From the NCBI GenBank assembly GCA_046760225.1, contig JBHIDR010000003.1, positions 1 through 46,537 on the forward strand: 46,537 nucleotides of DNA. The letters are read 5' to 3'. Of this stretch, positions 42,001 to 46,537 are shown in pieces. Position 1 is the stretch's first letter. Every line of letters starts with the position of its first letter. This DNA is from Candidatus Aenigmatarchaeota archaeon (GTDB lineage Archaea; Aenigmatarchaeota; Aenigmatarchaeia; Aenigmatarchaeales; JACQIB01). Position numbers: made by a program.

Positions 42001-45000
42001 TACCTTTAAAGAGAAAAACTGCCTTATGAATTTTTCTATTTCCTCTTTGCGATAAATAATAAGCACATAGTTCACCGTTTTTGTACCATTTCTGAAGCCC
42101 TTATCTGTATAAATCCCAGATACTTTGATTCCATTATCATGGAATATATGCGCACATTCCTTTAATAACCTTTTGTTATGCTGCTTAATTCGTATATAAG
42201 GCTGCTTATTACCACCAATATGAATTGTGCCGTCTGCATCAAATAGTCCAGATAAAAACAATTTTTTGAGAAAATTAATTTTGATTATAGATGGCATACA
42301 CGTTTTGTTCTTTTTGCTACCTACTGGCATGCCACAAACTTTGGTTAAAAAGAGGTGTATAACTTTAGATCTTCCAATTAGTCTGTAAAAGTTTTTCTCT
42401 TTGAAAATCGGTGGGCTATAATTAAAAAGTTCTTTAAATATTTTTCTTAAAAAAATCAAATGAGCTATATTATCACCAGTTATTCTTATTTCAGCATTGT
42501 AAGTCGAGCCGTTGCTGATTAAGTTTTTCGGATTGGCTAAGTGACCGTCGCCCATTATGTAGCCAAGCAGATACGCTAACCGAGGTGTTAGAAATTTAGG
42601 AAGTGTATATTGCCTAGAGTTCGTGCAGCCAAACCAAATGGCTTTATCAAAGAGCTCATCTTTATCTGCACCTATAAATTTAACAAGCTTTAAGGCGTGA
42701 TAAATTGGTATACCAACATCACGCTTGCTCTCACCTATCCAGTAATTCAACCTTTTTACATCAACATTAAGAAATTGTGCCATCTCCTTTCTCTTACAGT
42801 TTGCTGCATTTCGCAGAAATTCTCTCATGCCATAAAGTCTTATAAAATCATTTCCTTTCGTTCCTTGTTCATTTGTATATAGCTTGTCTAAATAGCGAGG
42901 AAACTTCATGTTTGGTTCGTGAGGAATCGTAGCTACGTTACGCATAATTTTTATATGCGGACATTAAATATAAAGTTATCGAAAAGGTGACTCAAATGAA
43001 GAAAGTATTCGAGATAATTGATGAGATAAAGGATGAGCACAAGAAGATTGCAGAGGCATGGGATGAGAAGAAAGAGATAAGCCAGAGCCTCATGATAGGA
43101 TGGATTGACAAGAACGTGAAGCTCATGCTGGAACTAGGCAAAAAAATCGAGGAGCTTCAGGAAAGGCTTGATACGCTGCAAGCAGAAGGCAAGAAGAAAG
43201 GACTGTTCGGCTGATTGTCTAGAACACATCAACCTCGTCCATCATGTAATCCATAATGGACTCGTTGTCCCTATCAAACCTAAATGTGGCTCTTAGCCTC
43301 TTGTTCTGTAAAACCACAGGAATCCAGTGTTTGTCGTCCTTCCACATCTTCTCAAAGGGAAGCTTGTCCGTATCTGTCCATACTGTACTCATTTCCTCTG
43401 ACTCCTTTGGTTCACCTTCCCATCTGTCAATAAAGAACACATGAACCTTCTGGTCCCATTTCTTTTCCTTGGGCGCAAATGGAAAATAGAACGTGATCTC
43501 TGCCATCTTCTTGAGGTCACTTGGGTCTACCTTGACGCTTGTTTCCTCAAGCAATTCCCTTACAGCTGCCTCCTCTATTGTCTCATTTTCTCCAACTTTT
43601 CCACCAAAGCCATTGAACTTGCCTTCCCCGAAGCCGCGCTTCTTCATTCCTAGAAGTATCTGGTTCTCCTTGACCAAAAAGCACAGTGTTGCATCTCTCA
43701 ATCCATCCCCCCTATCGAATGCCGTGTCTTTTGAGGTCTTCTTCTGTTATTATAGGGCACATATTATAAAAAACTGAGCCTAGCACTTTTCGCGATGGGT
43801 AGCGTGGGTAGCTCATCCTTATTTCCCTTGCATCCTGTATCCCTTTCTCAATATCATGAATATCCATTTCTTTTAGCTCATCGGGGCTCTTCCCCAACAA
43901 TTCTGCTGTCATCTCATAGGGCTTCATAATTTCACTTGCCTCTGATTTTTTTCAGTACTGGTGGCATCTTTACCAAACTAGGAGTTTTTGTTTCTTTCAA
44001 CCAGATATAAAGTATTGTAAAGTAGGTAATCCTAATAAAGAGATAAATTACCAAGGTGAAAAAGAGGTAAATCATAATTAGCCCTATGTAAACTGTCAAA
44101 GCAAGATATGGATTTACAGCAAATAAGAAGAACATTATGAGAAAGGAAACAAAAAACCATATCGCTGCTCCTATTGTGATGGCCGCTTTGGAAAGTGGCT
44201 CAATGACGAATTCACCTATCAGTGCTTCTGGAACAGCATTCAAGAGCTTGGGAACGTCTTTCCTGAGGGCGTCCCATACGCTCTGGTCCTTTATCACCAT
44301 CGCAGGCAATGTGAACTTGTATACAATGCTCCAGCTGTGTTCCAGAGTGAATCCTAGCAAATCTTTGATAAAGCTCTTGTCCTTCTTCAGAAAGTAGACA
44401 AGCAAGGAAACAACGAACCCCAAAACAGTGAGCGTAATCACGTCCTTAAAGTCTTTGGCTGCTACACGAAGAGCAGACATGAATGAGACAGGCTTCTTCT
44501 TATATATTCTATAAATAATCCAGCTATGCGCGGTACTGAAAAAGGTATGGGTCAACAAGACTACGAAAACAGCAACTATAAGGGGTGGTAAGACAACGCT
44601 CACAAACCGGCTTTGTGTCAGAAATCTCTCTCCGTAGATATATGGAGCCATGACAATGCTAAACAGCAAAAATAGTACTATCAAGTCAACTACTGCCATA
44701 CATAGGGGTGAGCAAAGGGCAACTGGTCTTTCTTTGCCTATCTTAAGAGTTTCCTTCAAAGCCTGAAAACTACGGCCAAGCACCATAATATAATTCTGTA
44801 AATTCTTTTTATAAAGATTCTCTTTATAAAGAATCTGGTGCGGGAGGAGAGAGTTTCGCTTCCACCTTCGTGCACCGAAGGCGGTGCTTCGAACTCTCGA
44901 AGGGACTAACCCACAAGGCATCTGAAAACTTAGATTTTATGAATGTCCTAAGCAACTTATCTAAAATATCCATCTTTCTGGAACCTACCCAATTACCTTT

Positions 45001-46537
45001 AACTACAATAGTCTCATCTGAAAAGCCTATAATCTTCTTGAATTTTCTTATATACTCTTCTTTATGTATAGCTATTTCATGTCTATGTGTTCTAAGTATA
45101 CAATCTACTCCAAGATCTCTATGCATTTTGTATATGTCTAGCAATACTTCATCATTGTAGCAAACTGCAACTAAGCTCCTACTCCCTTTATTTAAAAGCA
45201 CAGATCCTTCATCGTCCCAAAATGCTCTTAAAAATGCAATCTTATTTTGCTTGCTTCCTTTCAAAATTTCTCGAGGCACTGTTGTTGATGCTTTTGGATC
45301 TGATGTTGTATAAGCTGGCGTGTAACTTAAAAGGTCCTCTATTATTAGTTTCGAACGGAAAGTTGCAGTAATACAGTTCCACTTATCGACATATATGTAA
45401 GGTTTACTTAGACCATAGACCTTTTTGAAATCCCCTGTAAACTGTCGTATAAGACCTTTAGATTTATTTCCATAGCTTATTCTATATCTTTTAGGCATTA
45501 CATTTCCGTCAAACAAGCAATGGGCTATAATCCTTGTTTTCTCTATACTTAGACCTTTCTGAATCACTGGCCTTTCCTTTATACAAGTTCCTTTTAAATA
45601 CCTTTTAGCTGTATTTAATGAAATGTTTGTTTTTTCTGCAATCTCTTGCATTGTATGTTTTTTATTTCTAAGTCTAAACATTTCCTTTACTTTTTTCTTT
45701 GGCAAAGGTTTTGCGTATTTCCTTGCAAATGCAATTTGATTTTTCTTCATTGCTGTCATTTTCTCCATTTTTCACACCTAAGTTTACCTCAACCTTGCAC
45801 CGTTGACCTGGCTTGGCGACTCCCGCATACAAACAAATATAATATGACAGTTTAAATAACTTATAGGGTGATGTAATGGAAGAGAAGAAGTGCATTGTGT
45901 GCGACTGCGATTACAACCTAATAAAGCAGCTTACGAAAAAGTTGCAGTTCCTGTGGGGCATTGATGGCTATATAAAGGATGCGGAAAAGGACGGGCACAA
46001 GGATTGCGCTGAACTGTTCAGGGAGATAAAGGCTGATGAGGAAAAGCATGCCAAAAAGATGAAGGAACTGCTTCTGAAGAAGGTAAAGGAAGGGAAGCTA
46101 ACATAAGGATAAATCTCTTTAAAGCAGAAAAGATACCATGAAAAAAATAGTTCGTACAATCTCAGGCATAACCCCATTGGCAGTTATGTTAAAACCGCAT
46201 CCATGCCCGCATGGTAAATGCAATTATTGTCCTACTCATTCTGGCGTGCCTGAGTCCTATACACCGACTTCTCCTGTTGTTCTGAGGGCGCTTGACTGCA
46301 ACTATGACCCCCAGAGGCAGGTATGGGCAAGGCTGAAAATAATGGGAATGATGGGACATACAAGGGACAAGGTCGAGCTGATTGTGATGGGCGGCACTTT
46401 CCCTGCTTATCCACTTGATTACCAGAGGGAGTTCATCAAGGGCTGTTTTGATGGCCTGAATAACATAAAGAGCAACAGCCTTGATGAGGCCAAGAAAATC
46501 AATGAGACAGCAAAGCACAGGTGCGTTGCACTGTGCC

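What a model noticed while it worked through the whole genome (the two positions that open the first line are those of the whole stretch)
44830..45826. tRNA-Leu(GAG) gene with an 867-nt endonuclease-bearing intron at 37/38 and a second 35-nt intron in the T-arm
A tRNA-Leu(GAG) gene that no tRNA finder reported lies on the minus strand (45826 to about 44836). It is cut at the canonical 37/38 site by an 867-nt BHB intron (45786-44920) that holds the 314-aa LAGLIDADG-like gene g00195, and in the T-arm by a 35-nt intron (44887-44853). With both removed ARAGORN reads an 89-nt tRNA-Leu(GAG). With the tRNA at C3:24967-25736 this makes two tRNA genes whose archaeal-type intron carries a homing-endonuclease gene.
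Evidence so far: The genus mate's intron-free tRNA-Leu(GAG) matches 45826-45787 with bases 1-40 and 44919-44891 with bases 41-69. Intron 1: anticodon-stem helix 7 bp, central helix 4 bp, 3-nt bulges, intron helix 10 bp, score 21 against 12 for the next other site. Intron 2: central helix 4 bp, exon helix 5 bp. ARAGORN on the doubly spliced sequence: tRNA-Leu, anticodon gag. g00195 matches g00176 at E 3e-14, g00386 at 7e-10 and a LAGLIDADG profile of this genome.
(Added by a program. Inside this text positions count along the whole contig: contig position 1 is position 1 of the stretch shown here. "Call 12" and the like, gene names such as g00115 and contig names such as C1 are that model's own, and its searches are not shown. 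The text may have been shortened before it was handed on; [...] marks where a part breaks off. The agent that wrote the report below was given it as the finding of a first reader that could run no searches.)

Follow-up and report, generated by a model that had tools for sequence, protein, structure and literature searches.

The report
Two-intron tRNA-Leu carrying an endonuclease gene
A leucine tRNA gene of a tiny hydrothermal-vent archaeon is broken by two removable introns, and the larger one carries a selfish DNA-cutting-enzyme gene, an arrangement known for archaeal ribosomal RNA genes but which I could not find described for tRNA genes.

Summary
A tRNA-Leu(GAG) gene lies on the minus strand at 45826-44836. 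It is split by an 867-nt intron at 37/38 (45786-44920) and a 35-nt intron at 59/60 in the T-loop (44887-44853). With both removed, ARAGORN reads an 89-nt tRNA-Leu(GAG). That tRNA matches intron-free genes of a genus mate (78 of 89) and an order mate (84 of 89), and the differences in the stems are compensatory.

Intron 1 has a strict bulge-helix-bulge (BHB) junction. It encodes a two-motif LAGLIDADG endonuclease with an N-terminal helix-turn-helix.

Intron 2 belongs to a five-copy intron family at the same T-loop site in five tRNA genes of this genome. The genome encodes a two-subunit splicing endonuclease and RtcB.

The reading frame has no stop inside the intron. Ligating the intron into a circle would place TAA directly after its last codon.

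There is no RNA evidence. The companion tRNA-Tyr gene has an anomalous anticodon loop.

The scan found endonuclease-bearing tRNA introns before on other DNA. I found no paper that describes them.

The parts
45851..45859 (-). TATA-like box TTATTTAAA, 25-33 nt upstream of the tRNA 5' end; likely promoter of the pre-tRNA (inferred)
   Evidence: Read from the sequence. The genus mate's tRNA-Tyr locus has a similar TTTAAATA box upstream. Not tested.
45787..45826 (-). Exon 1 of tRNA-Leu(GAG): acceptor 5' strand, D-arm, anticodon stem 5' strand, anticodon GAG, position 37
   Evidence: Matches the intron-free genes of G001, G010 and G011 up to the last base.
44920..45786 (-). Intron 1, 867 nt, at canonical position 37/38; strict helix-bulge-helix-bulge-helix junction
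   Evidence: Score 21 (7+4+10), best of the region. The 10-bp helix between the intron ends appears in the minimum-energy fold of the whole 991-nt precursor. No group I match at E<=5.
44920..45768 (-). Homing-endonuclease gene: 283 codons from ATG 45768 to the last base of the intron. No stop inside the intron; the frame runs on to 44824 (314 aa). GGTG (Shine-Dalgarno-like) lies 7-10 nt before the ATG, inside the BHB inner helix.
   Evidence: LAGLIDADG_3, HTH_7; 312 cluster representatives at E<=0.001; D87 and E187 conserved; family C-termini end near residue 283; pLDDT 94.1; LAGLIDADG folds.
44888..44919 (-). Exon 2: position 38, anticodon stem 3' strand, long variable arm, T-stem 5' strand, T-loop 54-59
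44853..44887 (-). Intron 2, 35 nt, at 59/60 in the T-loop; member of a 5-copy intron family of this genome
   Evidence: Copies lie in C1, C3, C20, C32 and C37 at 0-8 substitutions, with compensatory changes (TTCG/CGAA to TTCA/TGAA in C32; CCTTCG/CGAAGG to CCCTCG/CGAGGG in C20).
44836..44852 (-). Exon 3: T-loop 60, T-stem 3' strand, acceptor 3' strand, A73, encoded CCA
24967..25736 (+). Companion: tRNA-Tyr-like gene with a roughly 690-nt insert at the anticodon loop that holds a 222-aa LAGLIDADG gene (25016-25684). The anticodon loop is anomalous.

Best explanation
This is the working tRNA-Leu(GAG) gene of a DPANN archaeon and the only one in the assembly. It is transcribed as a precursor of about 1 kb.

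The archaeal splicing endonuclease, here a two-subunit form with one catalytic and one non-catalytic subunit, cuts at two bulge-helix-bulge motifs. RtcB then joins the three exons into an 89-nt tRNA. These splicing steps are inferred from the motifs and from the presence of the enzymes; they have not been seen in RNA.

Intron 1 is a homing-type mobile intron. Its 283-codon gene encodes a monomeric double-LAGLIDADG endonuclease with an extra N-terminal helix-turn-helix. This enzyme would cut intron-less tRNA-Leu(GAG) DNA at the anticodon-loop site so that repair copies the intron in. Activity and mobility are inferred.

The gene has no promoter room of its own (18 nt after the splice site), so it must be expressed from the precursor or from the excised intron. 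Because excised archaeal introns are ligated into circles, the circle is the only form in which the frame is closed at the family's normal C-terminus.

Intron 2 is a short endonuclease-free intron. It has spread to the same T-loop site of five tRNA genes of this genome.
For: Gene structure and constraint:
- ARAGORN reads tRNA-Leu(gag) only after both introns are removed.
- Intron-free orthologues in G001 and G010 are 78/89 and 84/89 identical, and their stem differences are compensatory.
- No other tRNA-Leu(GAG) is present. The genome's other Leu genes are CAG (C1:53508) and UAG (C1:59176), each also with two or more introns.
- CUU plus CUC make up 47% of Leu codons in long open frames.

Splicing:
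- Intron 1 has a strict BHB, total 21. The helix between the intron ends and the anticodon stem appear in the fold of the whole precursor.
- There are two EndA genes. One is most like the N. equitans catalytic subunit (3IEY_A, E 4e-35) and keeps REHTKW. The other has Gly where the catalytic His aligns.
- RtcB is present.

Endonuclease:
- Pfam LAGLIDADG_3 and HTH_7 are over cut-off.
- D87 and E187 are 90% or more conserved in 56 sequences. They sit at the ends of helices 75-86 and 173-187 of a pLDDT-94 model.
- Foldseek gives 81 PDB matches at E<=0.001, led by intein and intron LAGLIDADG enzymes.

Mobility:
- The intron and the gene are not found in the genus mate or in any of the 6 same-family genomes. 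Only 3 of 40 relatives hold a homologue at E<=1e-8.
- Relatives of the gene sit in tRNA-iMet 37/38 introns in 3 of 17 loci and in this genome's 23S rRNA.

Circle: excised archaeal introns are circularised, and ORF-bearing rRNA introns form stable circles (passages of PMC3326292).
Against: - No RNA data exist for this organism, so neither splicing, circles nor expression has been seen.
- The 4-bp central helix of intron 1 is not in the minimum-energy fold, which prefers a 4x4 internal loop.
- The BHB score was reached by 2 of 200 shuffles.
- No intron-less allele appeared in four metagenome runs. The two joints seen are paralogous tRNA-Leu genes. The intron therefore looks fixed, and current mobility is not shown.
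- The nearest endonuclease relative is only about 40% identical, and none was found in another tRNA-Leu(GAG).
- The gene has no stop of its own.
- The inner helix of intron 2 is imperfect.
Confidence: 0.8

Rival explanations
1. Spliced but no longer mobile. The intron is a fixed relic, and the endonuclease gene is either inactive, on its way to decay, or kept for another role such as DNA or RNA binding.
For: The intron lies at the same depth as its flanks and no empty allele is seen in four runs. There is no close copy elsewhere. The frame has lost, or never had, its own stop.
Against: The frame is open over all 283 codons in AT-rich DNA. D87 and E187 and the other near-invariant residues are kept. 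The model is confident throughout.
Confidence: 0.25
2. Dead gene. A tRNA-Leu gene was destroyed by insertion of an endonuclease cassette and is never spliced, and CUC/CUU are read by tRNA-Leu(UAG).
For: No RNA evidence. tRNA finders miss the gene. A tRNA-Leu(UAG) gene exists.
Against: Both inserts have BHB junctions exactly where removal restores a canonical cloverleaf. The exons show compensatory rather than random change against relatives. The exons stay at 61% G+C next to an AT-rich intron. It is the only GAG gene, and 47% of Leu codons are CUY.
Confidence: 0.06
3. Self-splicing group I intron, as in bacterial tRNA genes, rather than a protein-spliced BHB intron.
For: Bacterial tRNA genes carry group I introns in the anticodon loop, and archaea do have group I introns in rRNA (PMC6125680, passages).
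Against: No Rfam match to any intron family at E<=5 over 44700-45950. Only 18 nt of the 867 are non-coding, which leaves no room for a ribozyme core. The junction is a strict BHB.
Confidence: 0.01
4. Assembly artefact joining tRNA halves to an unrelated endonuclease gene.
For: The tRNA exons are repeated in paralogous genes, and unitigs break there.
Against: 956-nt contigs from two samples run from intron 2 through exon 2 and intron 1 into exon 1 with 0-1 differences and at flank depth. A third run covers 45075-45833.
Confidence: 0.02

Closest known systems
LAGLIDADG-encoding BHB introns of archaeal rRNA genes (I-DmoI in Desulfurococcus mobilis 23S rRNA, I-Tsp061I, Pyrobaculum and Thermoproteales 16S/23S introns)
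   Same: The intron is cut at a bulge-helix-bulge motif by the tRNA splicing endonuclease and carries a LAGLIDADG endonuclease gene. The fold matches I-DmoI and I-Tsp061I. Such introns form stable circles (PMC3326292; PMC4496867). A paralogue of this gene sits inside this genome's own 23S rRNA.
   Different: The host gene here is a tRNA, at the canonical 37/38 site. The protein has an added N-terminal HTH domain. The frame fills the intron to its last base and has no stop of its own.
Ordinary archaeal tRNA introns
   Same: Same position (37/38), same strict BHB motif, same enzymes.
   Different: Reported lengths are 11-129 nt, and the only cargo named is a C/D box RNA (PMC4090602, passage). 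This intron is 867 nt and codes for a protein. The word 'homing' does not occur in either 2014 review.
Bacterial tRNA group I introns with homing endonuclease genes (cyanobacterial tRNA-fMet intron; the intron is cited in PMC4496867 ref. 42, its endonuclease is recalled from memory)
   Same: A mobile, endonuclease-bearing intron in the anticodon loop of a tRNA gene.
   Different: Those are self-splicing ribozymes. This one has no ribozyme and depends on host proteins.
tRNA intron transposition in Thermoproteales (Fujishima et al. 2010, as described in PMC4033280) and non-canonical T-loop introns of ARMAN/Nanoarchaeota
   Same: For intron 2: near-identical short introns at one non-canonical site of different tRNA species within one genome, together with a broad-specificity type of EndA.
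   Different: A different phylum. All five copies are at 59/60. None was found by BLAST in the 40 relatives searched.
Earlier findings of this scan on other genomes (e1-2556437 tRNA-Asp, e1-2785782 tRNA-Ala with HNH, e1-4857440 initiator tRNA)
   Same: Endonuclease-bearing BHB introns at 37/38 of DPANN tRNA genes, with relatives that lack the intron.
   Different: A different tRNA (Leu-GAG), a second intron in the same gene, and a frame closed only at the would-be circle junction. No sequence look-alike in the scan's index.

Membership tests
Archaeal BHB (protein-spliced) intron | Two 3-nt bulges on opposite strands separated by a 4-bp helix, flanked by helices | tested here: met
   Intron 1: 7 + 4 + 10 bp with 3-nt bulges. 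Intron 2: 5 + 4 bp, then 1 bp plus a 9-bp helix, a relaxed form.
Archaeal BHB (protein-spliced) intron | Removal at the bulge cut sites restores a functional RNA | tested here: met
   The spliced product is an 89-nt tRNA-Leu(GAG), collinear with the intron-free genes of G001 and G010.
Archaeal BHB (protein-spliced) intron | The host encodes the splicing endonuclease and RtcB ligase | tested here: met
   Two EndA genes on C2 and RtcB on C35.
Archaeal BHB (protein-spliced) intron | Spliced exons and excised (circular) intron seen in RNA | not testable with these tools
   No RNA run holds the stretch.
LAGLIDADG homing endonuclease | Two LAGLIDADG core domains (alpha-beta-beta-alpha-beta-beta-alpha, twice) in one chain | tested here: met
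   Pfam LAGLIDADG_3 26.4 > 22.5. The model has pLDDT 94.1 with two such units. Foldseek matches I-DmoI, I-Tsp061I, I-SceI and PI-PfuI at prob 1.00.
LAGLIDADG homing endonuclease | Acidic residue at the end of each LAGLIDADG helix | tested here: met
   D87 (LFDG) and E187 (WDDEG) are 90% or more conserved in 56 sequences and invariant in the 10 closest. They lie at the ends of helices 75-86 and 173-187. Their catalytic role is inferred from the family.
LAGLIDADG homing endonuclease | Cleaves the intron-less allele and drives intron homing | not testable with these tools
   Only a sporadic distribution: absent from the genus mate, present in 3 of 40 relatives.
Group I intron | Conserved ribozyme core (P3-P9) | tested here: not met
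   No Rfam hit at E<=5. 849 of 867 nt are coding.
tRNA-Leu(GAG) | Cloverleaf with long variable arm, anticodon GAG, A73 | tested here: met
   ARAGORN drawing. 84/89 identity to G010's tRNA-Leu(GAG).
(alpha-beta)2 splicing endonuclease | Two separate subunits, one catalytic and one lacking the catalytic His | tested here: inconclusive
   The 176-aa paralogue keeps REHTKW and best matches N. equitans alpha. The 163-aa paralogue has Gly at the aligned His. Assembly into a heterotetramer was not tested.

The most novel reading that the evidence does not exclude
The endonuclease is translated from the excised intron after RtcB has ligated it into a circle, and only that ligation completes the gene. 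The linear intron is a non-stop message, because its 283 codons end on the intron's last base. The circle of 867 nt (289 codons) puts the intron's first three bases, TAA, directly after the last codon. Two more in-frame stops (TAG, TGA) follow before the ATG 18 nt on. This would be a natural protein-coding circular RNA in archaea whose stop codon is made by RNA ligation, tying expression of a selfish gene to successful splicing of its host tRNA.
Probability: 0.3. Interest if true: 0.85.

Novelty: new variant of a known kind. Interest (0 to 1): 0.66.

Why it matters
How archaeal tRNA introns are gained and move is an open question. Reviews give lengths of 11-129 nt and no protein cargo, and they invoke an unexplained 'intron transposition'. 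A tRNA intron that carries the same kind of homing endonuclease as rRNA introns offers a concrete, testable DNA-level route. The same endonuclease family sits in tRNA introns, in the 23S rRNA, and flush against tRNA and 5S rRNA genes in related archaea.

It also matters for annotation. Standard tRNA finders miss this gene. Only 17 tRNA matches pass Rfam's cut-off in a genome that is 83% complete. tRNA sets of such archaea are therefore undercounted.

Tried and rejected
- RNA evidence: no RNA holder is listed for the stretch.
- Intron-less allele: none was seen in four DNA runs. The joint 44918-45805 with 36 letters between is the paralogous tRNA-Leu(UAG) gene at C1:59176. The joint 44908-45793 (letters between not known) is probably another tRNA-Leu paralog; I did not identify it.
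- PDB search by sequence with the endonuclease: nothing meaningful (best E 0.54). The fold search was needed.
- The word-index homologue search gave only 3 proteins. The full HMMER search gave 312.
A 10-row alignment worked.
- My BHB-plus-ARAGORN solver also called 'tRNA-Leu' across junctions in L036, L041, L042 and L047. I reject these. The acceptor stems are poor, one call is on the wrong strand, and Rfam shows whole 5S or tRNA genes beside the endonuclease match there, not around it.
- Other LAGLIDADG paralogues of the genome (C18, C39, C9, C1) gave only background BHB scores of 14-18.
- The 45-nt insert in the window's 5S rRNA has no BHB in my scan (best total 9).
- Tocchini-Valentini et al. 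2011 (PMC3064391) is not held, so I could not check whether it mentions endonuclease genes in tRNA introns.
- Literature searches for endonuclease-bearing archaeal tRNA introns returned only rRNA-intron, group I and organelle papers. Supplements were not consulted.
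Full report
WHAT IS THERE

On the minus strand, 45826-44836 reads as three exons (40, 32 and 17 nt) separated by an 867-nt and a 35-nt insert. ARAGORN with default settings finds no tRNA in the whole window, and Rfam at gathering score finds one unrelated tRNA. When a script removes both inserts by coordinate, ARAGORN draws an 89-nt tRNA-Leu(GAG) with a long variable arm, A73 and an encoded CCA. 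It finds nothing in the unspliced sequence, nor with intron 1 alone removed.

COMPARATIVE PROOF OF THE JUNCTIONS

A BLAST of the 1101-nt region against 40 relatives gives matches that run straight from the last base of exon 1 into the first base of exon 2 in G001 (same genus), G010 and G011 (same order). ARAGORN reads uninterrupted 89-nt tRNA-Leu(GAG) genes in G001 and G010.

The spliced sequence is identical to them at 78 and 84 of 89 positions. Against G001 the stem differences come in compensatory pairs (6:80, 31:45, 65:75). The exons have therefore evolved as a tRNA, not as debris.

A regular-expression scan for the tRNA-Leu 5' end finds two further Leu genes. One is CAG at C1:53508, with a 43-nt variable-arm intron plus the same T-loop intron. 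The other is UAG at C1:59176, with a 17-nt intron in the anticodon stem plus a different T-loop insert. No second GAG gene is present in the 83%-complete assembly. CUU and CUC are 47% of Leu codons in stop-free frames of 200 or more codons, which is a rough proxy.

THE SPLICE MOTIFS

Intron 1 has the strict archaeal motif:
- an exon helix of 7 bp (the anticodon stem plus two pairs);
- a 3-nt bulge;
- a 4-bp central helix (TTGA with TCAG);
- a 3-nt bulge;
- a 10-bp helix between the two intron ends.

The total is 21, the best of all pairs in the region. Controls were mixed. Two of 200 mononucleotide shuffles also reached 21, so the motif alone is modest evidence. The minimum-energy fold of the whole 991-nt precursor keeps the acceptor stem, the anticodon stem and the 10-bp helix, but it replaces the central 4-bp helix with an internal loop.

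Intron 2 sits between T-loop positions 59 and 60. It has the T-stem (5 bp), a perfect central helix (TTCG with CGAA) and a 9-bp internal helix set off by a small loop.

No intron family of Rfam matches 44700-45950 even at E<=5.

THE PROTEIN

The frame from ATG 45768 is open for 314 codons. Exactly 283 of these lie in the intron.

- Pfam gives LAGLIDADG_3 (26.4 bits, cut-off 22.5, residues 176-248) and HTH_7 (24.6, cut-off 23.8, residues 25-59).
- A full HMMER search finds 312 cluster representatives at E<=0.001, the nearest about 40% identical.
- In a 56-row alignment H83, F86, D87 and G88, and also F183, D186 and E187, are 90% or more conserved, and G188 is invariant.
- The AlphaFold model has pLDDT 94.1 and pTM 0.82. 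It shows four N-terminal helices, a linker and two alpha-beta-beta-alpha-beta-beta-alpha units, with D87 and E187 at the ends of helices 75-86 and 173-187.
- Foldseek returns 81 PDB matches at E<=0.001, led by intein endonucleases (TliVMA, PI-PfuI), WhiA, and the archaeal intron enzymes I-Tsp061I and I-DmoI.

That these two acids are the catalytic pair is inferred from the family.

THE MISSING STOP

The ten closest homologues end within a few residues of position 283, so the 31-residue tail encoded by the tRNA exons is foreign to the family.

The intron ends on a codon boundary (GAT) and begins with TAA. Its 18-nt leader reads TAA ACT TAG GTG TGA AAA before the ATG, and 867 is 3 x 289. If the excised intron is ligated into a circle, the frame closes at the junction.

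Circularisation is what archaeal enzymes do with excised introns, and ORF-bearing rRNA introns persist as circles (passages of PMC3326292). Chance alone gives a stop at that codon about once in twenty. The endonuclease genes in the tRNA-Tyr insert and in three tRNA-iMet introns have their own stops. I therefore hold this as a hypothesis at about 0.3.

The GGTG before the ATG lies in the 10-bp BHB helix.

THE MACHINERY

Contig C2 has two EndA genes separated by a nitroreductase-like gene. The 176-aa protein is most like the N. equitans catalytic subunit (3IEY_A, E 4e-35) and keeps REHTKW. The 163-aa protein has Gly where the His of M. jannaschii EndA aligns. This suggests a catalytic plus structural pair of the (alpha-beta)2 kind, the type said to handle non-canonical introns (PMC5829648 abstract in the listing; PMC4033280 passage).

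RtcB is on C35.

MOBILITY

With this protein as query, no homologue at E<=1e-8 is found in the genus mate or in any of the six same-family genomes. Only 3 of 40 relatives have one.

In the one-genome-per-species collection, 17 loci encode relatives.
- Three (L049, L050, L052, from Nanoarchaeota and Iainarchaeum MAGs) lie inside 639-693-nt introns at 37/38 of a clean 76-nt tRNA-Met(CAT).
- Five lie within 0-26 nt of a 5S rRNA gene (L040, L041, L042, L044, L047). Several others lie next to tRNA genes.
- In G008 the match ends on the base before a tRNA-Val.

In this genome, paralogues lie in the tRNA-Tyr insert, between 23S rRNA segments on C8, and beside tRNA-Gly(UCC) and tRNA-Pro(GGG). The family is thus tied to structured-RNA genes, which fits homing.

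No intron-less allele appears in four metagenome runs. Contigs from two samples carry the intron at flank depth. Present-day mobility here is therefore not shown.

INTRON 2 AS A FAMILY

A fuzzy search finds five copies of the 35-nt intron (0, 0, 2, 3 and 8 substitutions), each after TTCGAA or TTCAAA of a different tRNA gene (C1, C3, C37, C20, C32). The changes are compensatory in the central helix (TTCA with TGAA in C32) and in the inner helix (C20).

BLAST found none in the 40 relatives. This parallels the 'intron transposition' described for Thermoproteales (PMC4033280).

LITERATURE

I made five full-text searches on endonuclease-bearing tRNA introns, one on intron transposition, and read passages of PMC6125680, PMC4496867, PMC4090602, PMC4033280, PMC11291895, PMC3326292 and a 2026 preprint on Asgard tRNA introns. 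I found endonuclease genes reported in archaeal rRNA BHB introns and in bacterial tRNA group I introns, but not in archaeal tRNA introns. Reported archaeal tRNA introns are 11-129 nt. The 2011 PNAS paper on archaeal intron evolution was not available.

The scan itself has met such introns before in other genomes. No look-alike of this protein is in its index.

ORGANISM

The genome is 851 kb in 83 contigs at 44% G+C. RtcB is closest to Aenigmatarchaeota, Pacearchaeota and Nanoarchaeota MAGs at 66-68%. The DNA holders are hydrothermal-vent metagenomes.

VERDICT

This is a new variant of a known kind, a homing-type BHB intron in a tRNA instead of an rRNA. The closure of the frame at the circle junction is an open and testable twist.

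Noticed in passing
window 24967-25736 (+): The tRNA-Tyr-like gene with the 222-aa LAGLIDADG gene has GC where the genus mate and five other relatives have AG at positions 36-37. Under the BHB rule (cuts after 25004 and before 25698; central helix 3 of 4) the loop reads CTGTGCA, that is anticodon GTG with C37. ARAGORN's GTA needs cuts two bases away. This is either a consensus error or a decaying or odd gene. The 3' end of the insert is homologous to the relatives' roughly 40-nt intron.
   Followed up: partly
own genome, contig C35 about 1392-2900 (+), outside the window: The RtcB ligase gene is itself broken by a 32-nt BHB mini-intron (C35:1646-1677; central helix TAGG/CCTA, 7-bp inner helix). 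Removing it joins GGISPGGIG to YDINCGVRL in one 491-aa frame. A second, in-frame 30-nt candidate lies at C35:1549-1578, exactly where relatives show a 10-residue gap. The scan has seen rtcB introns in many DPANN genomes before.
   Followed up: partly
own genome: C1:53393-53359, C20:9423-9457, C32:4348-4382, C37:4047-4013, and window 44887-44853: Five copies of one 35-nt intron at T-loop 59/60 of five different tRNA genes, with compensatory changes. None was found by BLAST in 40 relatives.
   Followed up: partly
window 26396-26554 (+): The 5S rRNA gene is 159 nt long because of a 45-nt insert in the loop after model position 39. My scan found no BHB motif for it. Relatives of the endonuclease sit flush against 5S genes in five Woesearchaeota and Pacearchaeota MAG loci.
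   Followed up: partly
own genome C8:14400-22032 (-): The 23S rRNA spans far more than its 2987 model positions. A LAGLIDADG paralogue (C8:15713-16366) lies between 23S segments, so this is a classical rRNA-intron endonuclease in the same genome.
   Followed up: partly
own genome C1:53508-53330 (-) and C1:59176-59000 (-): tRNA-Leu(CAG) has a 43-nt intron in the variable arm plus the T-loop intron. tRNA-Leu(UAG) has a 17-nt intron in the anticodon stem (30/31) plus a different, longer T-loop insert. A weak LAGLIDADG-like match (E 0.08) lies about 165 nt upstream of it.
   Followed up: partly
own genome C16:2052-2345 (-) and C72:282-911 (-): LAGLIDADG paralogues directly upstream of tRNA-Gly(UCC) (overlapping its 5' end by about 20 nt) and about 110 nt upstream of tRNA-Pro(GGG). 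In relative G008 a homologue ends on the base before a tRNA-Val.
   Followed up: no
whole own genome: Only 17 tRNA matches pass Rfam's cut-off in an 83%-complete genome. Several loci (C16:7982-8173, C37 about 4010-4140) look like tRNA genes with three or more introns that I could not resolve.
   Followed up: no
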